IMG/VR virus record: IMGVR_UViG_3300043436_003324
Length of the DNA: 64,000 nucleotides
Strand: one strand, 5' to 3'
Source of the DNA: a virus
Shown here: piece after piece, positions 1-26,132 of the stretch
How the letters are laid out: each line of letters opens with the position of its first letter
Position numbering within the stretch: the first letter of the stretch is position 1
Made by a program: the position numbers and the translations under genes
The notes under the pieces: generated by a model
Told to the model about the DNA's origin: nothing
Databases searched by the model: none
Seen by the model: only the letters and a program-made list of their open reading frames with translations

Positions 1-114
1 AACGATGTGATCGAATCATATAGAAATTATTACCGAGAAGGAAAAAAACTTATCGTTAGTTGGAAAAACAGGGTTATTCCAAGTTGGTTTCAACCCGACG
101 AAGTATTTATATGA
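1..114 (+). CDS. 3' end of a gene running in from the left; resembles the C-terminus of pyrimidine-dimer DNA glycosylase-like phage proteins
   Basis: Frame 1 reads NDVIESYRNYYREGKKLIVSWKNRVIPSWFQPDEVFI*, matching the D-x-V-x-x-YRxYY...W..R..P.W tail of that family. Truncated. Confidence 0.5.
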   Translation, partial: NDVIESYRNYYREGKKLIVSWKNRVIPSWFQPDEVFI

Positions 115-125
115 TAAAATCATAT

Positions 126-1649
126 ATGAAACATTTTTTATCTGAAGAAATAAGAAGAATAAAAACATTAATGTCAATTAATGAATCAATAGATACTACG
201 GCACCTAAATTTTCAACTAAAATATTTGATAAAGTGGATCCTACTTGGGGAGGGGGACCTAATTCACATGCCGCAAGACATCCAGACCCAACAGGAAAGG
301 ATTGGTGGAGTAATAACGCCTACGATATAATGGCACCTGAAGGTACACCTGTTTATTCAATATCCGATGGATATGTTGATAAAATTACAGATAACCCTCC
401 CGGATTAAAATCTAGTGGAGGTAAAAGAATTTATGGTGACAGTATTACCGTTAGGGGTAGTGGTGGTAATCCTGACGTTTTTTATACCCATATTACAAAT
501 ATTGTTATTGAGGATGGGGATCCTATTAAAAAAGGTCAATTACTTGCATATATTGTAAAGGGTGAGTTAGGAATTCCTGATCATGCACACGTTTCAGTTA
601 AAGTTGGTGATGTTAAAGATTTCGTTGACGTAAACGGTAATATTGAGGGTGTGGATAATAGTTTATTAGGTAATTTATCAATCACAACAAGTAAAGGTGA
701 AGAAACCCCTATTGATACTAAAACAATAATGGGTACGGCAGCCGGATTAACCGCAGCCGCTCTAAGTTCTTTAGATATTAAAAGACCTGAATCAGATATA
801 AGTGGTATTGCTTCAAGATTTGGTATTACAGACGTTGATGTTAATACTGATTCCGTATCTGGCGTCTTAAATAAAATAATACTATCTTCAGAAGGTCTCG
901 GTACCGATGAAACTTCAATACATGATGCAATTAAAAAATTAAGTAGTTGTTATGAACTTGATGAACTAAATAAAATGGTTGAAAGAAAGGAAATTGATGG
1001 GAGAAAATATAAAGACGTATTTGATTACATTAATAGTGAAATGAATTATGGAGATGAACTATTTGTTAAAAGTTTAGTTAAAACAATAAATAATATTTGC
1101 CCAAATACTGTAACAGATAAAGGGAACCAAATTTTACGTGTTAATAAAAGTATTTACGTAGGTGGAGGAATTGATAAAGTAGTTCCAATAAAACTTCTTA
1201 ATGATTTAAAATCTTATGGTCTTTCAGATAATGCAGCCAAAGGAGTTGTTGCAAACGCTTTTGGTGAAAGTGTTTTTAACGTTAAGGCTAAAGGGGATTC
1301 AGGAAGTTACGGGGAAAGTTCAAATAGATCAATAAACATTGATGGTAAAAAATACTGTTCTTTTGGTTTATGGCAATATAATATTTGTGGTGGAATGGGA
1401 GTTTCATTCTTGAAGAACTATAACGTAAATGTTGATACTTCTTCAGATGAAGAAAAATTAAGAATTTTATTTGATTATAATAAACAAGTTGAGTTTATGT
1501 CAAAAAGAATAAAAGAAGAACAAATTAACAGTGAGAAGGACGTAAGAACTTGGATAGATTGGATTGTTGATAATGTTGAGAGACCTTCAGATAGGACTTC
1601 CGCAAAAATAAAAAGGCAAGAATTTGCAAAACAACAAGGATGGTCTTAA
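126..1649 (+). CDS. Multi-domain cell-wall hydrolase: M23 peptidase + annexin-like repeat + phage tail lysozyme-like domain
   Basis: M23 motifs YDIMAPEGTPVYS, YTH, HAH; GLGTDE annexin-like motif; AAKGVVANAFGES...FGLWQY...ERP lysozyme-like motifs. Likely start is the ATG at 126 downstream of TATTTATA (104-111), not the track's TTG at 60. Confidence 0.75.
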   Translation: MKHFLSEEIRRIKTLMSINESIDTTAPKFSTKIFDKVDPTWGGGPNSHAARHPDPTGKDWWSNNAYDIMAPEGTPVYSISDGYVDKITDNPPGLKSSGGKRIYGDSITVRGSGGNPDVFYTHITNIVIEDGDPIKKGQLLAYIVKGELGIPDHAHVSVKVGDVKDFVDVNGNIEGVDNSLLGNLSITTSKGEETPIDTKTIMGTAAGLTAAALSSLDIKRPESDISGIASRFGITDVDVNTDSVSGVLNKIILSSEGLGTDETSIHDAIKKLSSCYELDELNKMVERKEIDGRKYKDVFDYINSEMNYGDELFVKSLVKTINNICPNTVTDKGNQILRVNKSIYVGGGIDKVVPIKLLNDLKSYGLSDNAAKGVVANAFGESVFNVKAKGDSGSYGESSNRSINIDGKKYCSFGLWQYNICGGMGVSFLKNYNVNVDTSSDEEKLRILFDYNKQVEFMSKRIKEEQINSEKDVRTWIDWIVDNVERPSDRTSAKIKRQEFAKQQGWS

Positions 1650-1720: not shown

Positions 1721-1870
1721 ATGACAGAATTAGAAACACAAGTAATCGAGATCGAACTTTTTAGTTACCTTAACGATAAAGGTCAAAGACTTTTTACTCC
1801 AAATTTTGAATTTGCCGATGTTATGGCAAGAAAATACGGTACGTTTAAAGTTTACGTAGAAAAATATTAA
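1721..1870 (+). CDS. Small hypothetical protein (49 aa), not in ORF track
   Basis: ATG at 1721 after an A-rich leader; reads MTELETQVIEIELFSYLNDKGQRLFTPNFEFADVMARKYGTFKVYVEKY*. Confidence 0.6.
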   Translation: MTELETQVIEIELFSYLNDKGQRLFTPNFEFADVMARKYGTFKVYVEKY

Positions 1871-1888
1871 AAAAAGTTCACAAAGTAC

Positions 1889-1919
1889 TTGACAAAACAA
1901 AACAAATGTCGTAACTTTG
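1889..1919 (+). promoter_or_regulatory. Bacteroidetes-type sigma70 promoter P1
   Basis: TTG(1889-91)-N20-TAACTTTG(1912-19) matches the TTG-N19-21-TAnnTTTG consensus. Confidence 0.8.
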
Positions 1920-1973
1920 TAAAACAAATTTGGAAAACGTCCAAATAAGAAATAAAAAAAGTTTAGAAAAAAT

Positions 1974-2004
1974 TTGGAAAATTCAAAAAGTATTCTTATC
2001 TTTG
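1974..2004 (+). promoter_or_regulatory. Bacteroidetes-type sigma70 promoter P2
   Basis: TTG(1974-76)-N20-TATCTTTG(1997-2004); lies 85 bp downstream of P1 and is followed by the same TAAAACAAAT. Confidence 0.8.
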
Positions 2005-2031
2005 TAAAACAAATCGGAAAAGTCCGATAAC

Positions 2032-2043
2032 GTTCTTTGAAAA
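2032..2043 (+). promoter_or_regulatory. boxA-like antitermination element
   Basis: GTTCTTTGAAAA directly after a leader hairpin (ATCGGA-AAAG-TCCGAT); resembles rrn boxA. Confidence 0.55.
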
Positions 2044-2044
2044 G

Positions 2045-2917
2045 TTAGATATTATCCGTTCAGGATTAAGTTAAGAACCTTCGGGTTTAAGAATGAAACT
2101 GATAAAGATATTGGGCCGTGTATAGTCCATAAAATAAACTACGAAAGTAGGATAAAGTGAACCCCCAAGTGTAACGGGTTTGCGTCTTAATGGTCTTCGG
2201 ATCATTGAGGTCGAGTACACAGGCGAGATACCATAAAATCTTTAGTACCGAGGCCAACGGTGTAGGGAAAGTGATTTTATGATGAGGTGATGTGGGTCAT
2301 CTTGTTGAGGAGGGAACTCTAATAGGAATAACTCGTAGGGATGATGCAAGAATCAATATTTCCAATGTTGTTATTGCGGGTCTCAGTACGATAGGGTACT
2401 TAAAACCGAAAGGTATGACAACAAACAGGTGGTGCTGACATTGTCCTTGATGAATCTCTACCAAGGGACTTATCTCGAAGTAATCTTGAAATATTGAAAT
2501 GGGGACATTTCACGAGGCAGTTTGGTATTTTGTTATTCAAAAGATAATGAAGCTTAAGACGGACCACTGCTTTGACCAATCCACGACACAAAAACTTTTA
2601 TGTTAATGAAGTAACATTTATAAACTATAAAGCAAAAGTGTCCGTCACGATATAACGGAAGTTACCCACCTATTCACTGGCAGTCAGTGGAACGTGATAA
2701 CCGCAAGTTTGACCGTATTTTTATGAAAAATCTCTAGGTCGTCGAAGACCGAATCAGGACGCAATCTTGAGGAGACAGGATTAGTAAGAGAGTAGTTATG
2801 TCGTCAAGGAGTGATTGGTCTAACCAATCGGTAATGAGTGTTACAGGACAAAATCCTGTGGATAAGAGTAGAACCAATAATGACTCGAAAGACACTTACA
2901 AAAACTGTAATCTCAGG
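2045..2917 (+). ncRNA. Large structured ncRNA of about 870 nt; GOLLD/ROOL-class candidate, boundaries approximate
   Basis: No credible ORF and GC-richer than its flanks. Dense hairpins with UUCG/GNRA loops: AACC-TTCG-GGTT 2076-87, CTAC-GAAA-GTAG 2139-50, 11-bp stem with TTCG loop 2185-2210, ACC-GAAA-GGT 2405-14; also GATTGGT-CTA-ACCAATC 2813-29 and ACAGGA-CAAAA-TCCTGT 2843-59. Promoters upstream and a terminator downstream. Family assignment not verified. Confidence 0.75.
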
Positions 2918-2957
2918 TTTTTATTTTTAGGTTAAATCTTATAAGAAAAAAATTAAT

Positions 2958-2988
2958 AGGGACGATGTGAATCGATCCCTTTTTTTTT
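2958..2988 (+). terminator. Intrinsic terminator after the large ncRNA
   Basis: AGGGACGAT-GTGA-ATCGATCCCT followed by a T run. Confidence 0.75.
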
Positions 2989-3045
2989 GTTTTTTTTTAT
3001 ATACTGATGTATTTATATTTAAAGATAAATAAATAATTTTACATT

Positions 3046-3543
3046 ATGAAAAGAATAATTAGACTAACAGAATCAGATCTTGCAAGAATAGTAAGAAGAG
3101 TAATTAGTGAAGGATTTGCTGAAAATACTGTTTTAGCGTTTGATTCGGTAACTGGATATAAAAGTGCATTGTTCCCGCAATTACAATATAAAAAAAATGG
3201 AACGGCATGGGACGTAAATTTTGCGGGTAGTAAAACTTTAGGAAATTTAATGAATATGAGAGATGGGAGTTTTCAAGTAGTTAACACAGAGTCCGATCCA
3301 ACAAGTTTAGATCAAAGGACGGCATTTGGTGTTTTCCTTAATACAACCCCTAAAACAAGAGCTGAGGTAGAAACTGCGGTTAAGGCCGTGGTCCAAGGAG
3401 GATATAAAGACCCGTTCACAATCAAGGCCGGTGGTAAAACTAAAAACGCAAAAGGTGTATTAGTTACTTGGGGTCGACCTGGATTTACGGCTGGAAGCGA
3501 AATGACTGATGCAATTTGTAAATTGTATAACGTTACCGCATAA
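3046..3543 (+). CDS. Hypothetical protein with N-terminal LTESDL-RIVxRVIxE leader
   Basis: Leader nearly identical to that of 7081..7578; TATTTATA at 3010. Confidence 0.8.
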   Translation: MKRIIRLTESDLARIVRRVISEGFAENTVLAFDSVTGYKSALFPQLQYKKNGTAWDVNFAGSKTLGNLMNMRDGSFQVVNTESDPTSLDQRTAFGVFLNTTPKTRAEVETAVKAVVQGGYKDPFTIKAGGKTKNAKGVLVTWGRPGFTAGSEMTDAICKLYNVTA

Positions 3544-3564
3544 TAAAGACATTTTTATGGAGAT

Positions 3565-3601
3565 AAAAAAAACGTAAGTCTACAATAGACTTACGTTTTT
3601 T
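3565..3601. terminator. Bidirectional terminator between convergent genes
   Basis: AAAAAAACGTAAGTCTA-CAA-TAGACTTACGTTTTTT inverted repeat. Confidence 0.8.
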
Positions 3602-4026
3602 GATATGTACCCAATCGCGTAATTACCCTCAATATGGTAAGTAACCAATCTAAATGGTTGATTATTTTTATAAACTACAACCATTCGTGATTTACTATTA
3701 GAGTCAGAAATACTTAAAAAAATATTTTTATTATTTAAAATATTTTTAGATGTAATTTGATAATTTTTTAACGTATCTCCTTCATCAACACTTGATATTA
3801 CATTATTTTCTTTAAAGTTGATATTAAAAACCATAAAATAATCTGACTCATAACTTTCCATATATGACCATCTATTCATTGTTGAGTCTGTACTCATAAA
3901 ATACATTAACTCATCTATAGTCATGGTAAAATCATAAAAGTCTGTGGCAAAAATATTTACATTTTTTTGGGAAAATGACAAAAAACTTGACAATGTCATG
4001 ATTAAAGAAAAAAATAATGTTTTCAT
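3580..4026 (-). CDS. Hypothetical exported protein (Sec signal peptide)
   Basis: MKTLFFSLIMTLSSFLSFSQ signal-peptide-like N-terminus, similar to 7626..8048. Confidence 0.7.
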   Translation of the reverse strand: MKTLFFSLIMTLSSFLSFSQKNVNIFATDFYDFTMTIDELMYFMSTDSTMNRWSYMESYESDYFMVFNINFKENNVISSVDEGDTLKNYQITSKNILNNKNIFLSISDSNSKSRMVVVYKNNQPFRLVTYHIEGNYAIGYISKNVSLL

Positions 4027-4107: not shown

Positions 4108-4518
4108 TGGTGGAGGTGCGGAGGCTCGAACTCCGGTCCATAATATCCTGTCAAACAAGGACTACACGTTTAGGTTAACATTTTCTAACGTTCCAAAATA
4201 TTCGATTTTTAACTTGATCAAAAACAAGGTTAGTTTGTTCTTCATTATCGTAAACTAACAACCAATAAACGACTCGATTTCGGGTTCAGTCGTATTCCAC
4301 CTTAAAGGACTTCTGTTGCTAGGTTATGTGTCCACCGACCCCCGTTTCCGTTAACTAATTAAGCTACAGTAACTTCAGAACCTCTTAGTAAACCAAGAGT
4401 TTCCATTTTCGATAAAACGTCGCCGATTGTTTTTGTGAATCAGTTTTTAAAGAGATTAATTCAGTCTCTACGTGCCCTTTATTCTCAGCCAATACCTGTC
4501 AAATCCAAAAACACCCCC
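4108..4518 (-). ncRNA. ssrA: tmRNA; tag peptide (A)GDVLSKMETLGLLRGSEVTVA*
   Basis: 5' GGGGGTGTTTTTGGATTTGAC and 3' GGAGTTCGAGCCTCCGCACCTCCACCA give an alanyl acceptor stem with G3:U and an encoded CCA. Tag frame runs 4424->4359, resuming at GGC after AAAAACAATC, with a hairpin over the tag. Confidence 0.95.
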
Positions 4519-6585: not shown

Positions 6586-7065
6586 ATGAAGTTTTTAATC
6601 TCAGACCAAGAAAGATCAAGAATTTTGGAAATGCATCAAAACGCTACATCAAAACAATATTTAACTGAACAAACAATTGCTAATACTCAAGCCGCATCAT
6701 TTGTTAATGAATTTAACAGAGTTATGACGGCATATAAATTACCTGGATATGTTGCAAAATTTGTCAAAGGTGCCGACGATTACCACGGTAATATTGTCAT
6801 TTATAAAGATGGTAAAGAACTTGTCAAATCACCACAAGATTTTGGAATTGCGGTGACTGCGAATTTATCACCAGGAGTTCAACAAACTAAAGATCCATTA
6901 GATAATTATGGAACACAATTAGTCGATGGTAAAGTCACACAATTTGGACAAAGTTTAGAGAAAGTTTTGGGAACTGCTGACGCAGCGGCAAAAAATCAAC
7001 TATCAACAGCTGTAAGGAGTGCGGTTGATGCGGTTAAAAAACAATTATCACCAACTCAAAAATAA
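6586..7065 (+). CDS. Hypothetical protein with ISDQERSRILEMH leader
   Basis: TATTTAT at 6540; shares a 21-bp 3' end with the next gene. Confidence 0.75.
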   Translation: MKFLISDQERSRILEMHQNATSKQYLTEQTIANTQAASFVNEFNRVMTAYKLPGYVAKFVKGADDYHGNIVIYKDGKELVKSPQDFGIAVTANLSPGVQQTKDPLDNYGTQLVDGKVTQFGQSLEKVLGTADAAAKNQLSTAVRSAVDAVKKQLSPTQK

Positions 7066-7080
7066 AAAAAAATAAATATT

Positions 7081-7578
7081 ATGAAAAAAATTATCAAACT
7101 AACTGAAAGTGACTTAACCAGAATAGTTAAAAGAGTTATAAATGAAAGAAATTTGTTGATGGAAAAACATAGTTCCGAGTCTATTAATGTTAATATACCG
7201 TGGACGATAAATAAAGAAGGGAAAGAAATTGTCGCTAAATCACAATTTAATGTTGGGGAATACTATCCATCATTCTCTTATTTAGAAGGAGACCCTGATA
7301 TAGTAAAACAACTTGATAAAGATACAAAAACAAACCCATACACAATTAAAAGTGTTAGTCTTCCTGATGTAACCGCAACACCAATCGGACCACAAAAATT
7401 TGTTAAAGGTAGTGACGGAAATTATTATTTAACGGGTAAATTACAATTACCACAAGACATTAAAGTAACATGGGGTGTTGTTCCTAATACTACGATTGTA
7501 TTTAGTGACGGACAATCAGTCAGTGGAGGTGTTGTTTATAAAAAAGGAAAACAATATACACCACCAACTCAAAAATAA
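7081..7578 (+). CDS. Hypothetical protein with LTESDL-RIVKRVINE leader
   Basis: Leader shared with 3046..3543. Confidence 0.8.
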   Translation: MKKIIKLTESDLTRIVKRVINERNLLMEKHSSESINVNIPWTINKEGKEIVAKSQFNVGEYYPSFSYLEGDPDIVKQLDKDTKTNPYTIKSVSLPDVTATPIGPQKFVKGSDGNYYLTGKLQLPQDIKVTWGVVPNTTIVFSDGQSVSGGVVYKKGKQYTPPTQK

Positions 7579-7594
7579 AAAACAATTAAAAACT

Positions 7595-7627
7595 AAAATC
7601 CCCACCTGAAAAGATGGGGATTTTTTT
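7595..7627. terminator. Bidirectional terminator
   Basis: AAAATCCCCA-CCTGAAAAGA-TGGGGATTTT between convergent genes. Confidence 0.7.
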
Positions 7628-8048
7628 ATGATGGTTTTTCTATATTAAACTTTGTAATATTTTTTACTGTGGTTGAGTTATCTGTAAACCAAAACCAAAT
7701 AACATTTTCACTCCCATAATTGGTATTAACAATCAAACCATAATCAAAACTTTTTTCCAATATATTAATCTTAAGTGACCCATTACCAAGATTTACAAAT
7801 TTAATTGGTAATGAACTAATTTCAACATCATCAATAAAATATGTGGAGGTTTCATTACCAAGGTCTATAATATATTTGGTGTAATTACTATTAACATCAT
7901 ATATTAAATCCGGTTTCATTAACACAGAATCCACCGATGTTCTATGAAATGAAATCATTTCTTGTTTTTCAAATACGTGAATTATTAATTTTTGACTAAA
8001 TGATAAAAAATTAAAGAAAAAAAATAGGGTTAAAAAAATTGTTTTCAT
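7626..8048 (-). CDS. Hypothetical exported protein (Sec signal peptide)
   Basis: MKTIFLTLFFFFNFLSFSQ; TAAATTTG promoter element upstream on the minus strand. Confidence 0.7.
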   Translation of the reverse strand: MKTIFLTLFFFFNFLSFSQKLIIHVFEKQEMISFHRTSVDSVLMKPDLIYDVNSNYTKYIIDLGNETSTYFIDDVEISSLPIKFVNLGNGSLKINILEKSFDYGLIVNTNYGSENVIWFWFTDNSTTVKNITKFNIEKPS

Positions 8049-8095: not shown

Positions 8096-10159
8096 TTATT
8101 CTCCCTTTTTCTTTCTACCTTTTTTCTTTGGTTCTGGTTTTGACCTATCCTCAATTTCTATTGTTTGATCATCACCTTCTCCTTTAACAAATAACATATA
8201 TTCGCCCCCTTCTATAACCTCATTGTTTAATATCTTTTCTGAAATTAAATCTTCGATTTTATCTTGGATTGCTCTTTTAATTGGTCTTGCTCCGTATTGA
8301 TCATCAAAACCAACTTTTGATATAAAATCAGTCACAGAACCTTCATAAGAAACGTTATATTTCATAGATGTTAATCTGTCAATTAGTTTATCAATTTCAA
8401 GTTTTACAATTTTATCAATATGTTCTTTTACTAAAGAATTAAATATTACAACATCATCAATTCTATTTAAAAATTCAGGTGCAAAAAATTTGCGTAATTC
8501 TTTTTTCAATACGTCTCTTTTATACTCCTCTTGGACAACTTCACTATTATTATTTGTTTTAAATCCAACACCATTACCAAAGTCCTGTAATTTTCTAACA
8601 CCAATATTTGATGTCATAATAATTAAACAGTTTTTAAAGTTGATCTTTCTACCTAACCCATCAGTTAAATGACCATCATCTAACATCTGTAGTAAAGTTG
8701 CGAATATGTCTTTATTCGCCTTCTCAATCTCATCAAAAAGTATAACAGAATATGGTTTATTTTTAACTTGTTCTGTTAATTGACCCCCTTCTTCATGTCC
8801 CACATATCCTGGAGGGGATCCAATAAGTCTTGAGATGGTATGTTTCTCTTGGTACTCAGACATGTCAACTCTTATTAAACTATCTTCACTACCAAATATT
8901 TCTTTTGCTAATTTTTTTGCTAAAAACGTCTTACCAACACCTGTTGATCCTAAAAATATAAACGAACCGATTGGTCTATTAGGGTCTTTAATCCCAACTC
9001 TATTTCTTCTTATAGATTTTGATATTTTTCCAACCGCCTCTTCTTGACCAATAACGTATTTATTTAAAGTTAATTCAAGATTAACTAATGAATTTTTCTC
9101 ATCTACATTTATTTTACTAACAGGAATTTTAGTCATGTTTGAAACTACCTCATAAATGATTTCATCAGGAATACCTCGTTTACTATTTTTAAGATGATCC
9201 TCAAATTTCTTTTTCTCCTCTTCTAATTTAATTAAAACGTTTCTTTCTCTATCTCTTAATTCGGCCGCTTGTTCGTAGTTTTGTTTTTTAATAACGGTCG
9301 CCTTCTCTTTCTTTATTTCTTGGGCCTCAACTTTTAATAACTCAATTTCTTCAGGTAATTTTATATCTATTTGCATTCTTGACCCAACCTCATCTAAAAT
9401 ATCAAAAGCCTTATCAGGAAACTCTCTATCCGTAATATATCTATCGGCCAACTCAACACATAACCGAAGTGATTCATCGGTATAATTAACCTTATGATGT
9501 TCTTCATATTTACCCTTACTTTGTTGTAGTATTTGAAACGTTTCTTCTTTGGTTGATGGATCCACAATAATCTTTTGGAATCTTCTTTCTAATGCTCCAT
9601 CTTTCTCAAAATGTCTTCTATACTCATCAAGGGTTGTTGCTCCAATACACTGAATTTCACCTCTTGATAACGCAGGTTTAAATATGTTTGATGCGTCTAA
9701 AGAACCTGAACTATTACCCGCACCAACCATAGTATGAATTTCATCTATAAATAAAATAATATTAGGGGTGTTCTGAAGTTCTTCAATAATCACCTTCATT
9801 CTTTCTTCAAATTGACCTCTATACTTTGTGCCGGCAACAATTGAGTTAATGTCTAAAGACACAATTCTTTTATCTACCAAATTTTTTGGGCACTCTCCAC
9901 CATAAATCATCATTGCAAGACCCTCGACGATTGCAGTTTTACCTGCTCCTGGTTCACCAATAATAATAGGGTTATTTTTTTTCCTCCTTGATAAAACTTG
10001 GGCAATTCTAAAGATTTCTTTTTCTCTACCAATTACTGGGTCTAATTTACCTTGTTCGGCAAGTTTTATTAGATCTTTACTAAAATTATCTAATACAGGT
10101 GTTCCGGCCTCACTCTTTTTTTTATTTTTATCATTACTATCGTCTACAAAATCTAACAT
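8096..10159 (-). CDS. clpC: ClpC-type AAA+ unfoldase lacking the N-terminal domain
   Basis: LDPVIGRE; Walker A GEPGAGKT and GSTGVGKT; Walker B LFIDEIH and ILFDEIEK; UVR middle domain YEQAAELRD; GARPIKR. Only about 20 aa precede the first conserved motif. Confidence 0.92.
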   Translation of the reverse strand: MLDFVDDSNDKNKKKSEAGTPVLDNFSKDLIKLAEQGKLDPVIGREKEIFRIAQVLSRRKKNNPIIIGEPGAGKTAIVEGLAMMIYGGECPKNLVDKRIVSLDINSIVAGTKYRGQFEERMKVIIEELQNTPNIILFIDEIHTMVGAGNSSGSLDASNIFKPALSRGEIQCIGATTLDEYRRHFEKDGALERRFQKIIVDPSTKEETFQILQQSKGKYEEHHKVNYTDESLRLCVELADRYITDREFPDKAFDILDEVGSRMQIDIKLPEEIELLKVEAQEIKKEKATVIKKQNYEQAAELRDRERNVLIKLEEEKKKFEDHLKNSKRGIPDEIIYEVVSNMTKIPVSKINVDEKNSLVNLELTLNKYVIGQEEAVGKISKSIRRNRVGIKDPNRPIGSFIFLGSTGVGKTFLAKKLAKEIFGSEDSLIRVDMSEYQEKHTISRLIGSPPGYVGHEEGGQLTEQVKNKPYSVILFDEIEKANKDIFATLLQMLDDGHLTDGLGRKINFKNCLIIMTSNIGVRKLQDFGNGVGFKTNNNSEVVQEEYKRDVLKKELRKFFAPEFLNRIDDVVIFNSLVKEHIDKIVKLEIDKLIDRLTSMKYNVSYEGSVTDFISKVGFDDQYGARPIKRAIQDKIEDLISEKILNNEVIEGGEYMLFVKGEGDDQTIEIEDRSKPEPKKKGRKKKGE

Positions 10160-10320: not shown

Positions 10321-10695
10321 ATGTTTAATTGGAGTGATTTCGATAAAATTTTTAATGAGATGTTTTCTAACAGAACCGGATTTAATTTTGGTGATAACAA
10401 TTGGGATAAGAGAACTTACAAGTCTCCCGACGGTTCTTTTTCCATGACTTATATTACTAAAAAAAATAATAGTAATCCTAATTTAGACGAGGTTGATATT
10501 TTAAAACATAAATTAGAAATTGCGGTTGAGGAACAAAATTTTGAGTTGGCGGTAGAACTTAGAGATAAAATAAAAAATTTAGAGAAAAATTTGGAGAAAA
10601 TTTCCGAGTTGCAATCTAAATTAGAAGAGTGTATTAAAAATCAAGATTTTGAGAAGGCTATTGATTATAGGGATCAAATAAAATCTTTAAAATAA
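10321..10695 (+). CDS. Small protein with two UVR (UvrB/C) helical motifs; putative Clp adaptor
   Basis: EEQNFELAVELRDKIK and KNQDFEKAIDYRDQIK. Confidence 0.8.
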   Translation: MFNWSDFDKIFNEMFSNRTGFNFGDNNWDKRTYKSPDGSFSMTYITKKNNSNPNLDEVDILKHKLEIAVEEQNFELAVELRDKIKNLEKNLEKISELQSKLEECIKNQDFEKAIDYRDQIKSLK

Positions 10696-16041: not shown

Positions 16042-17814
16042 ATGAGTTTAACAAAAGAACAAGTGATGTTAGAATATGTTAGGTGTATGAAAGATACGGA
16101 ATACGCCTTAAAAACATATCTACAAACATACGATAATACAGTATCTAAATACGTACCATTACAACTATTTCCTGATCAAGTTTCTTTATTGAAAGATTAC
16201 GAGGACTACGAAGAGAACATTGCATTAAAATATAGACAGGCAGGAGTTTCTACCGTTACTGCGGCTTGGGTATCAAAAAGGTTAGTTTTTGCAAAAAAGA
16301 CCCAACCTGAAAAAATTCTAATAATTGCCAACAAACTTGATACCTCAATGGAAATGGCTAATAAAATAAGAGCGTTTGTTGATCAATGGCCTTCGTGGGT
16401 TGGTGCTGGATTTTCCATAGATAAAAACTCACAAAAACATTATAAATTAAATAATGGTAGTGAAGTAAAGGCGGTAGCAACATCAAAAGATGCGTTACGT
16501 GGATTTACCCCAACCATTCTTGTGTTTGATGAGGCGGCATTTATCGAGGCCGATAGTGATTTTTGGCCGGCTTGTATGGCCTCGTTATCTACTGGAGGTA
16601 AAGTAATTGTAGTATCAACACCAAATGGTTATGACCCAATATATTACGAAATATATGATCAAACATTAAAAGGTTTTAATAACTTTAAAATTTCTGAAAT
16701 GTTTTGGTGGAGAGATCCAAGATACGCCAAAGATTTGTTTTTAGTTCCTACAGATGATCTTGTACATTATCTTTTAAATAAAGATGAACAGGATGAGTCT
16801 AAACATGTCTCCTTTGCACATATTGACCCGTATGTTAGGGATCATACGGAAATATCTAAATACTTTAAAGAGGGATACAAACCGTGTTCAAATTGGTACG
16901 AAAAAATGGTTAAAAAATTAAAGTACGATAAGAGGAAGATCAATCAAGAGTTAAATTGTGAGTTCTTAGGTTCAGGGGATAATGTATTTGATAATAAACA
17001 ATTAGAGGAAATAAAAAATAACACCCTTTTAGAACCTGAAGGTAAATTAATGGGTAACTCATTATGGATGTGGAAAGAACCAATATTGGGCAATAAATAC
17101 ATAATGGGGGTTGACGTATCAAGAGGGGATAGTGAGGATTTTAGTTCAATACAAATTATTGATTTTGATGCGAGAGAACAAGTTTTTGAATACGTTGGTA
17201 AAATTCCACCTGATTCTCTTGCTGAGATCGCATATAAATGGGGGATTATGTATAATGCGTTTATTGTTGTCGATATCACCGGAGGTATGGGAATAACAAC
17301 AGTTAGAAAATTACAAGAATTAGGATACAAAAGTTTATACGTTGAGGGTATTGATACCACAAGTATATGGTCTAATGCAAGTAAGGCGGTGGATAAAATC
17401 CCCGGAATTAACTTTAATAATAAAAGAGTACAAATAATTGCGGCATTTGAGGAGGCAGTTAGACACAAATTTAAAATAAAAAGTGTTAGATTATATAATG
17501 AAATGAACACTTTTATATATGTAAATGGTAGACCAGATCACCAAAGAGGACAACATGATGACCTTATCATGGGGATATCAATGGCAATTTATGTTGGGGA
17601 ATCTTCCTTTACAAAATTAGAAAAGGTCGCCCAACAAGCTAAGGTTATGTTGGAGTCTTGGACCGTAGCGTCAAATGATTCTGTTGCAAAAGAGGCTCAC
17701 TTTAATCCATTGTTACCTAACATGAATGTTAAAAGAGATAATTTTGGTAGGGAAATTAATGCCGCAACAAAAGATGATTACATTAAATACGGGTGGTTAT
17801 TTGGTGGTAGGTAA
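16042..17814 (+). CDS. terL: Terminase large subunit (T4 gp17-like)
   Basis: KYRQAGVST Walker A, LRGFTPTILVFDEAAF, VSTPNG, and nuclease motifs MGVDVSRG and HDDL. Confidence 0.93.
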   Translation: MSLTKEQVMLEYVRCMKDTEYALKTYLQTYDNTVSKYVPLQLFPDQVSLLKDYEDYEENIALKYRQAGVSTVTAAWVSKRLVFAKKTQPEKILIIANKLDTSMEMANKIRAFVDQWPSWVGAGFSIDKNSQKHYKLNNGSEVKAVATSKDALRGFTPTILVFDEAAFIEADSDFWPACMASLSTGGKVIVVSTPNGYDPIYYEIYDQTLKGFNNFKISEMFWWRDPRYAKDLFLVPTDDLVHYLLNKDEQDESKHVSFAHIDPYVRDHTEISKYFKEGYKPCSNWYEKMVKKLKYDKRKINQELNCEFLGSGDNVFDNKQLEEIKNNTLLEPEGKLMGNSLWMWKEPILGNKYIMGVDVSRGDSEDFSSIQIIDFDAREQVFEYVGKIPPDSLAEIAYKWGIMYNAFIVVDITGGMGITTVRKLQELGYKSLYVEGIDTTSIWSNASKAVDKIPGINFNNKRVQIIAAFEEAVRHKFKIKSVRLYNEMNTFIYVNGRPDHQRGQHDDLIMGISMAIYVGESSFTKLEKVAQQAKVMLESWTVASNDSVAKEAHFNPLLPNMNVKRDNFGREINAATKDDYIKYGWLFGGR

Positions 17815-18058: not shown

Positions 18059-19873
18059 ATGGAACAAAACGAAAAAAATTTAACGATTTGGCAAAGATTA
18101 TCCAAAACGTTCGGACCTAATTCATTATTAGGGATGGATGATCCTACCTATAGGTTTGATAAAAAAGAAATATTAAAGACTACCGATAAGTCTAAATTTG
18201 AAAAAGAGAAATTAGAAATCCAACAAACTTTATTTTTAAGTGATAATTGGAAAAAGATTGAAAATAACTTATACAGTCAAGCGGTATATTACGAACCAAA
18301 CAGAATGTCCGCATTCTACGATTATGAATCTATGGAATATACACCAGAAATCTCAACGGCCTTGGATATATATGCTGAGGAGTCAACAACATCAAACCAT
18401 GATGGGTTTATATTACAAGTTTATTCTGAATCACAAAGAATTAAAAGTATCTTAGTAGATTTATTTAATAATAATTTAGATATTAATACAAACTTACAAA
18501 TGTGGGTAAGAAACATGTGTAAGTATGGTGATAACTTTGTTTACTTAAAACTTGACCCTGAAAAAGGTATTGTAAGTTGTATGCAATTACCTAATATTGA
18601 AATCGAAAGATTAGAAAGAGGTATGGAATCCAGGACTATAAACACCACCCCATCAACAAAAAACGAGAAAAACTTAAGGTTTACTTGGAAAAATAAGGAT
18701 ATGGAGTTTAACACTTGGGAAATGGCCCATTTTAGATTGCTAGGTGATGATAGAAAATTACCATATGGTACATCGATGTTAGAAAAGGCTCGTAGAATAT
18801 GGAAACAACTTGTATTGGCGGAAGATGCTATGTTAATTTATAGAACATCAAGAGCTCCCGAAAGAAGAGTATTTAAAGTCTTTGTTGGTAATATGGACGA
18901 TAAAGATGTTGAGGCTTACGTACAAAGAGTGGCAAATAAATTTAAACGAGATCAAATTGTTGATTCTAAAACAGGTAATGTTGATTTACGTTTCAACCAA
19001 ATGGCGGTAGATCAAGATTACTTTATTCCTGTTAGGGACGCAACACAGACAATGCCTATTGAGACATTGGCAGGGGCAGCAAATCTTTCTGAGATTGCCG
19101 ATATTGAATACATCCAAAAGAAATTATTAACCGCATTAAGAATACCAAAAGCGTATATAGGTTTTGAAGAAGCGGTGGGTGATGGTAAAAATTTATCTTT
19201 ATTAGATATTAGATTTGCAAGAACTATTCATAAAATACAAAAAAGTATAATTTCGGAATTAAATAAAATTGCGATTATACATTTATTTTTACTTGGGTTT
19301 GAGGATGAATTAAATAACTTTACTTTAGGTTTAACTAACCCATCTAAACAGGCCGATCTATTAATGGTTGAGGTATGGAAAGAAAAGGTTTTATTGTATA
19401 AGGATATGGTTACAGAAATTCCAAATTCACTACAACCTACATCCGCAACTTGGGCTAAAAAACATATTTTTGGTTTTTCTGATGAAGAAATTAAATTAGA
19501 ATTACAACAAATAAGATTAGAAAGGGCGGTGTCAGCCGAATTGGCAAATACACCAACAATAATTACTCACACAGGATTCTTTGATACTGTAGATAAACTT
19601 TATAAAACTCAAACAGGAAGTACCCAAACTGCGGGTGCCGATCCAGCAGCAGGAGGGTCAACACCTCCACCAATGGGAGGAGGACCACCTCCACCACCTG
19701 GAGGAGCAGAGTCGGCAGGAGGACCACCAATCCCTGAAAGTATTAAGAAAAATAATTTAAACTTACTTTTAGAAAGTGATGACATATTTGGGGATGAATA
19801 TATTGATTTATCAAAGGCATCAAATTCTTTAGGGGATATAGAACAAGAACTTGATAAATTACTAAACAGTTAA
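18059..19873 (+). CDS. Portal protein (T4 gp20-like)
   Basis: PEISTALDIYAEE, LAEDAMLIYRTSRAPERRVFKVFVGNM, DYFIPVR and LRIPK motifs. Confidence 0.92.
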   Translation: MEQNEKNLTIWQRLSKTFGPNSLLGMDDPTYRFDKKEILKTTDKSKFEKEKLEIQQTLFLSDNWKKIENNLYSQAVYYEPNRMSAFYDYESMEYTPEISTALDIYAEESTTSNHDGFILQVYSESQRIKSILVDLFNNNLDINTNLQMWVRNMCKYGDNFVYLKLDPEKGIVSCMQLPNIEIERLERGMESRTINTTPSTKNEKNLRFTWKNKDMEFNTWEMAHFRLLGDDRKLPYGTSMLEKARRIWKQLVLAEDAMLIYRTSRAPERRVFKVFVGNMDDKDVEAYVQRVANKFKRDQIVDSKTGNVDLRFNQMAVDQDYFIPVRDATQTMPIETLAGAANLSEIADIEYIQKKLLTALRIPKAYIGFEEAVGDGKNLSLLDIRFARTIHKIQKSIISELNKIAIIHLFLLGFEDELNNFTLGLTNPSKQADLLMVEVWKEKVLLYKDMVTEIPNSLQPTSATWAKKHIFGFSDEEIKLELQQIRLERAVSAELANTPTIITHTGFFDTVDKLYKTQTGSTQTAGADPAAGGSTPPPMGGGPPPPPGGAESAGGPPIPESIKKNNLNLLLESDDIFGDEYIDLSKASNSLGDIEQELDKLLNS

Positions 19874-19893: not shown

Positions 19894-20613
19894 ATGAAAT
19901 TTGGTGTTTTAAAATCTAAAATAGAAAAGTGTTTAATTGAGTCATACAATAAAAACACGTTAAAAGATAATATTTTTATCTTTAATGAATTGGTTAAAAA
20001 GAACAAAAATATAAGTAAAATTTATTATTTATATGATGAACTTTCATCTAATAAAGGTTTGTCCGAATCAGTGGCGAATGATTTTATTAATGGGTCAATA
20101 ACAATATATGAGAACGCATTAAACAAAATTAATAAAAAGGACATCCAAGAAATTAGTTTATGGTTAAATAACGTTAACACAAAAAACGAATACGAAAAAA
20201 TAGATAACCTATTTTCAAGTAATGTTGTTATGTTGGAAAGTAAAATCCAAAGTAGAAAACTTGTTGTTGAGGGTCTTAAGTCATCCAAACCATTTTCTAA
20301 TAACGAGGTTGTTTCACTTCCTTTAGAAAGTATGGTTAAAGTTGCTAATGATACAATTACAAATTATTTATCTAATGTTAGTGAGTCAGAAAAAAAAGAA
20401 ATACTTAGTTTATTAAAAGAAGATAACGATAAGTTAGAAATTAAATTTGACTTCATTAAAGAAAACACAATAAAAAGACTTGAGAATATATTATCTTCTG
20501 ACTCAGATCCTGATACTGTTGGGGCAATTAAGGAAACTATTGAAAAGGTTAAAAATGAATCTTTTGATAAAATCTCCTATATAAAATTAAAAAATCTAAA
20601 TGAAAGTCTTTAA
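19894..20613 (+). CDS. Hypothetical protein in the head module
   Basis: 239-aa ORF between portal and bS21; TATTTAT at 19874. Confidence 0.75.
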   Translation: MKFGVLKSKIEKCLIESYNKNTLKDNIFIFNELVKKNKNISKIYYLYDELSSNKGLSESVANDFINGSITIYENALNKINKKDIQEISLWLNNVNTKNEYEKIDNLFSSNVVMLESKIQSRKLVVEGLKSSKPFSNNEVVSLPLESMVKVANDTITNYLSNVSESEKKEILSLLKEDNDKLEIKFDFIKENTIKRLENILSSDSDPDTVGAIKETIEKVKNESFDKISYIKLKNLNESL

Positions 20614-20789
20614 TTAAAATTCTTTTGTTTATATTTTGAATTATTTAAAATCTGTCTATTAATGACAGATTTTTTTTTATATTCTTTTAAATCATTTAAG
20701 ATACTATTCTGTCTTGTTTTGATAACTTTACTTTTTAATTCTTTTAGAGATCGTTCGATATCTCCTTTTTTCACCTTTACTATTAACAT
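20610..20789 (-). CDS. rpsU: Phage-encoded 30S ribosomal protein bS21 (59 aa), not in ORF track
   Basis: MLIVKVKKGDIERSLKELKSKVIKTRQNSILNDLKEYKKKSVINRQILNNSKYKQKNFN* aligns with the Bacteroidetes S21 pattern (MLII.VK.G..I.RALK..K.K...EF.KPSV..R.....A.Y). Confidence 0.85.
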   Translation of the reverse strand: MLIVKVKKGDIERSLKELKSKVIKTRQNSILNDLKEYKKKSVINRQILNNSKYKQKNFN

Positions 20790-24251: not shown

Positions 24252-26132
24252 ATGGGAGCATTATTAGAATCAGGTCTTGTTGGTAATATTGGGTTAAAAC
24301 ACCTTAAAGTTATCAAAGAAGACACAATTAACAAATGGGATAGATTAGGATTCCTTGAAGGCCTTAAAGGTCACCTAAAAGAAAACGTAGCACAGTTATA
24401 TGAAAACCAAGCTTCTTTCTTGATTAACGAATCAACTTCTGAAACTTCTAACGGAGCGTTCGAAACTGTTGTTTTCCCTATCGTAAGAAGAGTTTTCTCT
24501 AAATTGTTAGCGAATGATATCGTATCAGTACAAGCAATGAACTTACCAATCGGTAAATTGTTCTTCTTTGTACCTCGTATACAAGGATATAACACAGAAG
24601 CTGGAGCTACCAATCCAGGAGGACAACACTACTCTCCAATTGGTTCTCCACAAGCAATTGATGACGGAACTAATAATCCTAACCAAGGATATCCAGGTGG
24701 ACCAGGAACATCATACACTAAAAATCTTTATGATTTATTTTATGAAGGTAATGAGGCAGGATTAGATCCTCCAGGATTGTTTGATTACTCAAAAGGTCAA
24801 TGGACTGCGGTAACTCAACCGGCTATTGCTATGGTATGGTCAGGTTCAAACTTAGTTTCGGCAAGTACCCAATTTGATAATGTAAATACAAGAAAAATGA
24901 TTATTAAACTTTGTGGATTTAATAACGCAGGTGTTGGTAAATTAATCGGACCTGATGGTAACGAAATCGATACTGAAACTTTCCTTTCAGATCTTAAAAT
25001 AACTGCCGATTTAGATGTATTAACAGGAACTACAGGTTGTCCTAATTTAGATCCTGCCGTTGCAGGTTCAACTTTATCCGCACCATTATTATTTAGAGTT
25101 GTTACTCAAATTTATGGTAAAGGTATTGTACAACCTACATCAACTAACGCACCTACAACATTCCCAGGAACTGGTAATGGTGGAAATTACAATGACATCT
25201 GTTCACAAGATGGTTGTATATTTTTAGAAGTTGACCTTTCTTGTCCAGCATGTGTTGAATGTTCAGAGATTACATTAGATGGTTACACAGGAACTACAAT
25301 TGGAGGATTTTCGGCTAATACTGCGGTTTTAGGATCATCTCCATTCGTAGCGGTTTATAAAAGATATAAAAGTTTAGAATTTGAAGATCAAATTGGTGAA
25401 GTTTCTTTTGACCTTGAGTCAGTTACAGTATCTGTTACAGAAAGAAAACTAAGAGCACAATGGTCTCCTGAATTAGCACAAGACGTTGCTGCATTCCATA
25501 ACATCGACGCTGAGGCTGAATTGACGGCATTGTTGTCAGAACAAGTTGCGGCTGAGATCGACCGTGAAATTTTACGTGACTTACGTAAAGGAGCGGCTTG
25601 GAACCTACGTTGGGATTACAACGGATGGAGAAGATTGAGTTTAACAACTTCTTATACTCAAAAAGATTGGAACCAAACTTTGATCACTGCGATCAATCAG
25701 TTGTCAGCACAAATCCACAAATCTACTTTAAGAGGTGGAGCTAACTGGATCGTTGTTTCTTCTGAGGTTTCTGCAATCTTTGATGACTTAGAATACTTCC
25801 ACGTATCTAACGCATCTCCTGAGCAAGATCAGTATAACATGGGTATTGAGAGAGTTGGTACTTTGTCAGGACGTTACCAAGTTTACCGTGATCCTTACTT
25901 CCCACCAAACACAATTTTGATTGGACACAAAGGAACATCATTGTTAGACACAGGTTACATCTACGCACCGTACGTACCTCTACAATTAACACCTACAATG
26001 TACAATCCATTCAACTTTACACCTATCAAAGGTATTATGACAAGATACGCTAAGAAAATGGTTAACAACCGTTTCTACGCAAGAGTCACAGTTGATGGAG
26101 TTAGAACATTTGACTTAAGAGAATTGAGATAA
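24252..26132 (+). CDS. Major capsid protein (T4 gp23-like) with a large Cys-containing insertion
   Basis: DIVSVQAMNLPIGKLF, RKLRAQWSPELAQD, AEIDREI, YAPYVPLQ and GIMTRYA motifs. Confidence 0.95.
   Translation: MGALLESGLVGNIGLKHLKVIKEDTINKWDRLGFLEGLKGHLKENVAQLYENQASFLINESTSETSNGAFETVVFPIVRRVFSKLLANDIVSVQAMNLPIGKLFFFVPRIQGYNTEAGATNPGGQHYSPIGSPQAIDDGTNNPNQGYPGGPGTSYTKNLYDLFYEGNEAGLDPPGLFDYSKGQWTAVTQPAIAMVWSGSNLVSASTQFDNVNTRKMIIKLCGFNNAGVGKLIGPDGNEIDTETFLSDLKITADLDVLTGTTGCPNLDPAVAGSTLSAPLLFRVVTQIYGKGIVQPTSTNAPTTFPGTGNGGNYNDICSQDGCIFLEVDLSCPACVECSEITLDGYTGTTIGGFSANTAVLGSSPFVAVYKRYKSLEFEDQIGEVSFDLESVTVSVTERKLRAQWSPELAQDVAAFHNIDAEAELTALLSEQVAAEIDREILRDLRKGAAWNLRWDYNGWRRLSLTTSYTQKDWNQTLITAINQLSAQIHKSTLRGGANWIVVSSEVSAIFDDLEYFHVSNASPEQDQYNMGIERVGTLSGRYQVYRDPYFPPNTILIGHKGTSLLDTGYIYAPYVPLQLTPTMYNPFNFTPIKGIMTRYAKKMVNNRFYARVTVDGVRTFDLRELR

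What the first reader, a model, noticed from the sequence alone, without database searches (positions are those of the whole stretch)
2045..2917. About 870-nt ornate non-coding RNA in a jumbo phage late region
A stand-alone transcription unit (two promoters, one terminator) contains no credible ORF. It is GC-enriched and packed with more than 15 hairpins, several closed by UUCG or GNRA loops, with long-range pairings (ATAAAATC 2233 / GATTTTAT 2273; GAGTGT / ACACTT near the 3' end). Size and phage context fit the GOLLD/ROOL class of giant RNAs, which form RNA-only nanocages and have no known function. I cannot confirm family membership by eye, so it may be a divergent GOLLD or a new class. It sits about 1.2 kb from a tmRNA and in a genome carrying bS21, which hints at a translation-linked role (inference).
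Basis: partly seen in the sequence, partly recalled or inferred. Interest (0 to 1): 0.9.

Follow-up and report, generated by a model that had tools for sequence, protein, structure and literature searches.

The report
Ordinary GOLLD RNA in a phage
The gene-free stretch encodes a complete copy of GOLLD, a known giant phage RNA that self-assembles into protein-free cages and has no known function, so the element is ordinary; the less expected part is that it is transcribed through a leader copying the host's ribosomal-RNA anti-termination signal.

Summary
Window 2045-2917 has no credible ORF, is GC-enriched and is densely structured.

The family question is settled. Rfam GOLLD (RF02032) matches 2513-2919 end to end at 287 bits (cut-off 150). 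That model covers only the conserved 3' half of GOLLD.

The unmodelled 5' half (about 2098-2583) recurs in 48 IMG/VR phage contigs at 67-96% identity. Total RNA length there is 841-893 nt. Covariation is strong: 91 of 132 predicted 5' pairs show double compensatory changes. No signal of protein coding was found. This is therefore a canonical GOLLD, not a new class.

- Two Bacteroidota-type promoters are each followed by a small hairpin. After the second hairpin comes GTTCTTTGAAAA (2032-2043).
- That word is the boxA found before 16S rRNA in Bacteroidota genomes. It precedes GOLLD in 55 of 89 loci, against 0.02 expected.
- A tmRNA lies convergent to GOLLD here and in 7 of 12 close relatives.

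Expression could not be tested. This scan has already reported GOLLD with a boxA leader on other phage DNA several times. I found no paper linking the two.

Novelty: new member of a known kind. Interest is low to moderate.

The parts
1889..1919 (+). Promoter P1, Bacteroidota type: TTGACA at 1889-1894, 20-nt spacer after the TTG, then the -7 box TAACTTTG at 1912-1919.
   Evidence: Read directly from the sequence. The match to the Bacteroidota TTTG-N19-21-TAnnTTTG consensus rests on my own knowledge. TAnnTTTG lies within 70 nt upstream of the boxA word in 49 of 55 GOLLD loci. Not shown experimentally.
1928..1946 (+). Leader hairpin after P1 (7-bp stem, AUUUGGA / UCCAAAU).
   Evidence: RNA fold of 1915-2010.
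1973..2004 (+). Promoter P2: TTTG at 1973-1976, 20-nt spacer, then the -7 box TATCTTTG at 1997-2004.
   Evidence: Sequence. The same promoter, TAAAACAAAT and hairpin layout is seen in most related loci.
2013..2028 (+). boxB-like leader hairpin (AUCGGA AAAG UCCGAU) just upstream of boxA.
   Evidence: A hairpin of at least 4 bp precedes the boxA word in 45 of 52 unique contexts. There are 20 distinct stem sequences, so the structure is kept while the sequence changes.
2032..2043 (+). boxA-like word GTTCTTTGAAAA, the presumed NusB/NusE binding site of an rrn-type anti-termination leader.
   Evidence: Exact TTCTTTGA occurs in the leader of 55 of 89 unique GOLLD loci, against 0.02 expected per 320 nt. 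GTTCTTTGA lies 77-136 nt before 16S in 5 of 7 Bacteroidota-class genomes and again in four 16S-23S spacers; two of those leaders carry the identical 12-mer. Binding is inferred, not tested.
2045..2097 (+). Variable leader. It holds the recurrent element TTAGATATTATCCGTTCAGG (2045-2064) and a UUCG hairpin (2076-2087).
   Evidence: The first 96 columns of alignment A1 are poorly conserved. TATCC[GAT]TT follows boxA within 52 nt in 29 of 55 loci. Its role is unexplained.
2098..2583 (+). GOLLD 5' domain, closed by helix 2112-2115 / 2580-2583. Its last hairpin (2513-2574) is already the start of the Rfam model.
   Evidence: BLAST finds it in 66 of 122 upstream fragments, 48 of them near full length at 67-96% identity. 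It has 132 predicted pairs: 97.4% canonical against 36-43% in shifted controls, and 91 with double compensatory changes against 20-31 in controls.
2584..2640 (+). A/U-rich unpaired variable linker between the two domains.
   Evidence: Unpaired in the Rfam consensus (model positions 64-136) and in the alifold structure. It is length-variable in A1. The linker is reported as disordered and facing the cage interior in env-38 GOLLD.
2513..2919 (+). Rfam RF02032 GOLLD match, the conserved 3' region.
   Evidence: 287 bits, gathering score 150, E about 1e-82, model positions 1-416 of 416, not truncated. 67 predicted pairs, 98% canonical, 47 with compensatory changes.
2958..2989 (+). Intrinsic terminator: GGGACGAU / AUCGAUCCC hairpin (2958-2980) followed by U9 (2981-2989).
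   Evidence: RNA fold. An equivalent GGGAC...GTCCC + T-run or GATGGATA...TATCCA + T-run terminator lies 30-70 nt after the GOLLD 3' end in many relatives.
4108..4518 (-). Phage tmRNA, convergent with GOLLD. A neighbour, not part of the RNA.
   Evidence: RF00023 at 105.4 bits, full length. The same tail-to-tail pairing with GOLLD occurs at 113-1,150 nt in 7 of 12 close relatives.

Best explanation
Window 2098-2919 (+) is a complete, canonical GOLLD RNA gene of a large phage that probably infects Bacteroidota.

Shown here:
- The 3' half is a full-length, high-scoring match to the GOLLD family model.
- The 5' half is a conserved, covariation-supported domain of about 485 nt, shared with many other GOLLD loci.
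- A variable A/U-rich linker joins the two halves.
- Nothing in the region behaves like coding sequence.

Inferred from sequence: the gene is its own transcription unit. It has two host-type promoters (P1 ending at 1919, P2 ending at 2004), each followed by a hairpin. The host's rrn boxA word (2032-2043) follows the second hairpin. The unit ends at an intrinsic terminator at 2958-2989.

Most likely mechanism, in steps:
1. Host RNA polymerase starts at P1/P2.
2. NusB/NusE bind boxA and convert the polymerase into an rRNA-type, Rho-resistant elongation complex. This lets a roughly 0.9-kb untranslated, highly structured RNA be made in bulk and may help it fold. This step is inferred.
3. The RNA self-assembles into a dihedral homo-oligomeric cage, as solved for env-38 GOLLD (14-mer) and S. 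agalactiae GOLLD (10-mer). This is by homology and is not tested here.
4. What the cage does is unknown. The neighbourhood (convergent tmRNA, tRNA arrays in relatives) favours a role tied to the translation apparatus during infection. This step is a weak inference.
For: - Family match: RF02032 at 287 bits against a cut-off of 150, model 1-416 of 416. All 12 close relatives tested also score 288-328 bits.
- 5' half: hit in 66 of 122 GOLLD upstream fragments, 48 near full length at 67-96% identity. RNA length is conserved at 841-893 nt.
- Structure: 199 consensus pairs, 138 with double compensatory changes. 97.6% of cells are canonical, against 36-44% when partners are slid by 1-3 columns.
- Not coding: column variability is flat over the three codon phases (0.174 / 0.175 / 0.180). 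327 of 358 indel runs are not multiples of 3. The longest ORF is 63 aa.
- Leader: exact TTCTTTGA in 55 of 89 unique loci, against 0.02 expected. A hairpin precedes it in 45 of 52 contexts, with 20 different stems. The same word sits before 16S and in the 16S-23S spacer of Bacteroidota-class genomes.
- Terminator fold and equivalent terminators in relatives.
- Phage context: large terminase subunit, portal and major head protein.
- Published cage structures, and the published statement that GOLLD lies in phages and prophages near tRNA islands with function unknown.
Against: - The transcript, its ends and its abundance are therefore unverified.
- Homology of the 5' domain to the published P1-P13 of env-38 could not be tested directly, because no RNA sequence or structure was on hand.
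- The boxA reading rests on sequence identity and position only. The word could also take part in a leader helix: the single-sequence fold pairs 2031-2037 with 2089-2095.
- 34 of 89 loci lack the word.
- No tRNA lies in this 64-kb window, unlike the typical GOLLD setting.
- The related loci are not independent of each other, so the counts overstate the number of independent events.
Confidence: 0.9

Rival explanations
1. A new class of giant RNA, or a chimera. In this reading only the 3' part resembles GOLLD and the 5' 470 nt is an unrelated, novel domain with its own function.
For: The Rfam model covers only 2513-2919, so the 5' half has no curated model. GOLLD 5' regions are reported as less conserved. 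About half of the IMG/VR GOLLD loci found did not match this 5' half by BLAST.
Against: The published GOLLD architecture is exactly a roughly 420-nt 5' region, a linker and a roughly 413-nt 3' region. The 5' half here is about 485 nt. It is found joined to the RF02032 3' domain in at least 48 loci with conserved total length. A 5' helix (2112-2115 / 2580-2583) encloses the first hairpin of the Rfam model, so the two parts are one fold.
Confidence: 0.04
2. The region is, or contains, a small protein-coding gene or genes, and the apparent structure is incidental.
For: Several 30-63-aa ORFs can be drawn on both strands. Stop-free stretches of up to 119 aa occur in some homologues.
Against: There is no codon-phase periodicity in substitutions. 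91% of indel runs are out of frame. 138 base pairs show compensatory double changes. The region is a full-length match to an RNA family.
Confidence: 0.01
3. The GTTCTTTGAAAA word is not a Nus-factor site. It is instead part of the RNA's own leader structure or a processing signal, kept for folding or RNase cleavage, and GOLLD is transcribed by unmodified RNA polymerase.
For: The single-sequence fold pairs 2031-2037 with 2089-2095. The word is invariant, so covariation cannot tell the two readings apart. 34 of 89 loci manage without it.
Against: The 12-mer is identical to that in the rrn leaders of Bacteroidota-class genomes. A GTTCTTTGACAT variant in one GOLLD locus matches their spacer form, including the following ATATTG. 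The hairpin-then-boxA order is the rrn order boxB-boxA. The word is kept whether a promoter or a tRNA lies upstream, while its flanks carry 0.1-1.3 bits.
Confidence: 0.25

Closest known systems
GOLLD RNA family (Rfam RF02032), including env-38 GOLLD (833 nt, D7 14-mer cage; Kretsch et al., doi 10.1101/2024.12.08.627333)
   Same: Full-length match to the 3'-region model. The total size is about 820 nt of core, with the same 5' domain / variable linker / 3' domain layout. The context is a phage. The conserved loops of the model are present (UCAAAAGA, AAAGCAAAAGU, GUGGAUAAGAG, GUAAUCUCAG).
   Different: No tRNA is adjacent in this window; a tmRNA is the nearest stable-RNA gene. One inner stem of the model (positions about 163-177) is shortened. 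Oligomer number is unknown. Correspondence of the 5' helices to P1-P13 was not tested.
Streptococcus agalactiae GOLLD (decamer; reviewed in PMC12990946)
   Same: Same family and same conserved 3' domain (P14-P27) that drives assembly.
   Different: The S. agalactiae RNA lacks several 5' and P21b elements and forms 8-, 10- and 12-mers. Which helices the window RNA has at those positions could not be mapped.
ROOL RNA (phage and prophage octameric nanocage)
   Same: A large, ornate, phage-borne RNA near tRNA islands that forms a cage and has no known function.
   Different: Its sequence and secondary structure are unrelated. No ROOL hit at E<=1 in 1850-3050.
Bacterial rrn operon leader (tandem P1/P2 promoters, boxB-boxA-boxC, Nus/SuhB/S4 anti-termination complex; PMC10250234, PMC5725501)
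   Same: Tandem promoters, then a hairpin, then the boxA word of the host phylum, placed in front of a long, untranslated, highly structured RNA.
   Different: The cargo is a phage GOLLD RNA, not rRNA. No boxC or leader-trailer helix was identified. Nus-factor binding was not tested.

Membership tests
GOLLD (RF02032) | Covariance-model match to the conserved 3' region above the curated gathering score. | tested here: met
   287 bits against 150, E about 1e-82.
GOLLD (RF02032) | Match is full length, with all helices and conserved loops of the model. | tested here: met
   Model positions 1-416 of 416, not truncated. Only one inner stem is shortened.
GOLLD (RF02032) | Overall architecture: more than 800 nt, a 5' region of about 420 nt, an unstructured variable linker, and a 3' region of about 413 nt. 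| tested here: met
   5' domain 2098-2583, linker 2584-2640, model match 2513-2919. Homologues are 841-893 nt including the leader. Published layout.
GOLLD (RF02032) | Secondary structure supported by covariation in both halves. | tested here: met
   91 of 132 pairs (5') and 47 of 67 pairs (3') show double compensatory changes, against 20-31 and 11-24 in slid controls.
GOLLD (RF02032) | 5' domain corresponds to the published P1-P13 consensus. | not testable with these tools
   No 5' model exists in Rfam, and no RNA structure or sequence of env-38 was on hand. Indirect support only: this 5' half is attached to RF02032 3' domains in at least 48 loci.
GOLLD (RF02032) | Phage or prophage location, usually in or near tRNA islands. 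| tested here: inconclusive
   Phage context is met. There is no tRNA in the 64-kb window, but a tmRNA lies at 1.2 kb. 67 of 120 related loci hold tRNA or tmRNA genes, and several relatives hold long tRNA arrays.
GOLLD (RF02032) | Self-assembly into a dihedral homo-oligomeric cage. | not testable with these tools
   Needs native gel or cryo-EM of the transcript. Known only for env-38 and S. agalactiae GOLLD.
GOLLD (RF02032) | Expressed as a discrete RNA that rises during lytic growth. | not tested
ROOL, OLE, HEARO, group I / group II introns | Covariance-model match. | tested here: not met
   An E<=1 scan of 1850-3050 against all 4,227 Rfam families returned only GOLLD and a noise-level GEBRO hit (17.7 bits against a cut-off of 284.7).
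rrn-type boxA anti-termination leader | Sequence equals the boxA used before rRNA genes in the host lineage. | tested here: met
   GTTCTTTGA lies 77-136 nt upstream of 16S in 5 of 7 Bacteroidota-class genomes and in 4 spacers. The 12-mer GTTCTTTGAAAA is identical in two of them. The host lineage itself is inferred from promoter type.
rrn-type boxA anti-termination leader | Lies just downstream of the promoter(s), after a hairpin (boxB-boxA order), and is conserved across homologous loci. | tested here: met
   55 of 89 loci; 49 of 55 with TAnnTTTG within 70 nt upstream; 45 of 52 with a preceding hairpin.
rrn-type boxA anti-termination leader | Binds NusB/NusE and confers Rho-resistant elongation. 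| not testable with these tools
   Needs a binding assay and boxA mutants.

The most novel reading that the evidence does not exclude
GOLLD RNAs of Bacteroidota phages are produced by hijacking the host's rRNA anti-termination machinery, through tandem host promoters, a boxB-like hairpin and the phylum's boxA. In this clade they also form a conserved tail-to-tail pair with a phage tmRNA. Together this would mark GOLLD as a bulk-made 'stable RNA' that acts on the translation or ribosome-rescue apparatus during infection. I found no paper that mentions GOLLD together with boxA, NusB or anti-termination. The same leader has been noted repeatedly by this scan on other phage DNA.
Probability: 0.45. 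Interest if true: 0.55.

Novelty: new member of a known kind. Interest (0 to 1): 0.3.

Why it matters
On its own, this is one more GOLLD gene among at least 120 in IMG/VR, so it changes little.

Two things give it some value. First, it is a clean, complete example with defined promoters, leader, core and terminator, from a large phage that also encodes a tmRNA, a ClpC-like unfoldase and a bS21-like protein. Second, the boxA leader offers a testable handle on how a 0.9-kb untranslated RNA escapes Rho and is made in bulk. It also links GOLLD biogenesis to the rRNA transcription machinery.

The function of GOLLD cages is still an open question. A culturable Bacteroidota phage with this cassette would make deletion and boxA-mutant experiments possible.

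Tried and rejected
- The window's own assembly is not held. The nearest record, G001, starts at window 2821, so it shows no GOLLD hit. That absence is an artefact of truncation.
- ARAGORN finds neither tRNA nor the tmRNA in the window, although Rfam scores the tmRNA at 105 bits. ARAGORN-based tmRNA counts in related loci (11 of 120) are therefore underestimates.
- The generic sigma-70 scan missed the Bacteroidota-type promoters and the bulged terminator. It called the leader hairpin at 2013-2028 terminator-like, which I reject because boxA and the conserved RNA follow it.
- The genome-contig scan with a 5'-domain pattern returned only 7 MAG contigs of mixed and probably mis-binned taxonomy. 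It does not identify the host.
- A full-text search for the boxA word as a string returned mostly unrelated primer hits.
- The GEBRO hit (17.7 bits against 284.7) is noise.
- A BLAST search of GenBank phages gave only two partial hits. One led to the 634-kb uncultured phage LR745206.1, which has a full GOLLD behind a tRNA, a hairpin and boxA.
- I could not map the window RNA onto the published P1-P27 numbering or judge which oligomer it would form.

Full report
**Observation.** The stretch 2045-2917 contains no ORF longer than 63 aa on either strand. Its GC content is 0.38-0.43, against 0.22-0.30 in the adjacent spacers. A scan of the whole window against Rfam gave two hits above gathering score: GOLLD (RF02032) at 2513-2919 on the + strand, and a tmRNA at 4108-4518 on the - strand. 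A permissive scan of 1850-3050 against all 4,227 families returned the same GOLLD hit: 287 bits, cut-off 150, model positions 1-416 of 416, not truncated. The only other hit was a noise-level GEBRO match. No ROOL, OLE, HEARO or intron model matched. The printed alignment shows every helix of the model and its conserved loops, with one inner stem shortened.

**The 5' half.** The Rfam model covers only the conserved 3' region. The published architecture is a 5' region of about 420 nt, a disordered variable linker and a 3' region of about 413 nt.
- I collected GOLLD loci from IMG/VR with a 3'-end pattern.
- I then compared the window's 2040-2512 with the sequence upstream of each. 66 of 122 fragments matched, 48 of them nearly full length at 67-96% identity.
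- The whole RNA has a tightly conserved length of 841-893 nt.
- All 12 closest relatives carry a full RF02032 match at 288-328 bits.

**Structure.** A 40-sequence alignment (A1) has 75% mean column identity. RNAalifold predicts 199 pairs, of which 138 show double compensatory changes. In my own count, the 5' domain has 132 pairs that are 97.4% canonical, and 91 of them carry compensatory changes. When the 3' partner is slid by 1-3 columns, the figures fall to 36-43% canonical and 20-31 pairs. The 3' domain behaves the same way. A helix at 2112-2115 / 2580-2583 closes the 5' domain around the first hairpin of the Rfam model, so the two halves are one fold.

**Not coding.** Column variability is flat across the three codon phases (0.174, 0.175, 0.180). 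327 of 358 indel runs are not multiples of three.

**Boundaries and transcription signals.** Conservation starts at about 2098. Positions 2040-2097 are a variable leader. Upstream lie two promoters of the Bacteroidota type: TTG-N20-TAACTTTG ending at 1919, and TTTG-N20-TATCTTTG ending at 2004. The consensus they match is from my own knowledge. Each is followed by TAAAACAAAT and a small hairpin, at 1928-1946 and 2013-2028. After the second hairpin comes GTTCTTTGAAAA (2032-2043). An earlier first-reader note on this window (e1-5832196) suggested this is a boxA, and I tested that.
- Exact TTCTTTGA lies in the 320-nt leader window of 55 of 89 unique GOLLD loci. The background rate in the same loci is 0.02 per 320 nt.
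- 49 of those 55 have TAnnTTTG within 70 nt upstream.
- 45 of 52 unique contexts have a hairpin just before the word, with 20 different stem sequences. The flanks carry only 0.1-1.3 bits.
- In a few loci, and in the 634-kb uncultured phage LR745206.1, a tRNA rather than a promoter lies upstream, yet the hairpin and the word are kept.
- I then fetched 16S loci from seven genomes of the class of a Bacteroidetes MAG. GTTCTTTGA lies 77-136 nt before 16S in five of them, and GTTCTTTGACAT lies in the 16S-23S spacer of four. Two leaders carry the identical 12-mer seen in the window.
- The order hairpin-then-boxA is the rrn order boxB-boxA.

The leader is therefore an rrn-type anti-termination leader by sequence and position. 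Nus-factor binding is inferred. Downstream, a hairpin at 2958-2980 followed by U9 is a plausible intrinsic terminator. Equivalent terminators follow GOLLD in many relatives.

**Context.** The window is phage DNA. It encodes a large terminase subunit (16042-17814), a portal (18059-19873) and a major head protein (24252-26132). It also encodes an M23-peptidase plus tail-lysozyme protein just upstream of GOLLD. A near-identical IMG/VR fragment of 59 kb is rated 20% complete, which suggests a genome near 300 kb.

'Late region' is not shown. The promoters are host-type. No tRNA lies in the 64 kb. The tmRNA is convergent with GOLLD, 1,189 nt away, with two small ORFs between them. In 7 of 12 close relatives a tmRNA sits tail to tail with GOLLD at 113-1,150 nt, so the pairing is conserved in this clade. 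The bS21 claim rests on a 59-aa ORF (20610-20789, -) that scores 20.1 bits, below Pfam's cut-off.

**What it is and how it likely works.** This is a canonical GOLLD gene. By homology the RNA should assemble into a dihedral homo-oligomeric cage. The solved examples are a 14-mer for env-38 and a 10-mer for the S. agalactiae RNA. Function is unknown in the literature. Proposals include encapsulation or sequestration of tRNAs or ribosomes.

My best account has three parts. Host RNA polymerase starts at tandem strong promoters. boxA recruits NusB/NusE, so the long untranslated RNA escapes Rho and is made in bulk. The product forms cages whose role is tied to the translation apparatus. The last step is a weak inference from neighbourhood only.

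**Novelty.** Family membership is not new. I found no paper in the held library that mentions GOLLD together with boxA, NusB or anti-termination. The scan's own notes show the same GOLLD-with-boxA leader reported on several other phage genomes. My tests agree with those notes but are not made stronger by them.

**Limits.** I could not map the published helix numbering or predict the oligomer state.

Noticed in passing
window 4108-4518 (-): The phage tmRNA scores 105 bits in Rfam but is missed by ARAGORN. Its tag frame, read from the alignment, has 21 codons (GDVLSKMETLGLLRGSEVTVA) and does not end in the usual ALAA. A TAnnTTTG box (TATATTTG) lies about 30 nt upstream, and there is no boxA word.
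   Followed up: partly
L014, L015, L065, L071, L073, L086, L026 (IMG/VR relatives): A tmRNA lies tail to tail with GOLLD at 113-1,150 nt in 7 of 12 close relatives. This is a conserved convergent GOLLD-tmRNA pair.
   Followed up: partly
L026:7035-7637 (-): A group I intron hit (90 bits, 7035-7258) abuts and overlaps a weakened tmRNA hit (52 bits, 7231-7637). It may be an intron inserted in or beside a phage tmRNA gene.
   Followed up: no
window 8096-10159 (-) and 10321-10695 (+): A ClpC/ClpB-like double AAA+ protein with a UVR motif (AAA_2, AAA_lid_9, ClpB_D2-small) is divergent from a 124-aa protein with two UVR motifs. It lies 3.6 kb from the tmRNA.
   Followed up: partly
window 20610-20789 (-): A 59-aa bS21-like ORF sits between the portal and head genes. 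It scores 20.1 bits against PF01165, below the cut-off of 27.
   Followed up: partly
window 2045-2064 and many related loci: The element (T)AGAT(T)ATCC(G/A)TTCAGG follows boxA within about 50 nt in 29 of 55 loci. Its role is unknown; it could be a boxC analogue or a processing site.
   Followed up: partly
L004, L012, L017, L038, L042, L048 (downstream of the GOLLD 3' end): A short conserved element, AATGGAGCCACCGGTAAAA, lies between the GOLLD 3' end and the terminator in several relatives but not in the window.
   Followed up: no
L001 (LR745206.1, 634,780-bp uncultured phage) 2835-3852: This huge phage carries a tRNA, then a hairpin, then GTTCTTTGAAAT, then a full GOLLD (287 bits). A second boxA-like word lies at 2379, before a weak tmRNA-like or tRNA-like hit.
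   Followed up: partly
window 60-1649 (+): A 529-aa protein with an M23 peptidase domain and a phage tail lysozyme domain lies directly upstream of the GOLLD unit. It is a likely virion-associated lysin.
   Followed up: no
L077, L087, L024 (IMG/VR relatives): Long tRNA arrays (10-20 genes) lie within a few kb of GOLLD in relatives, whereas this 64-kb window has none.
   Followed up: no
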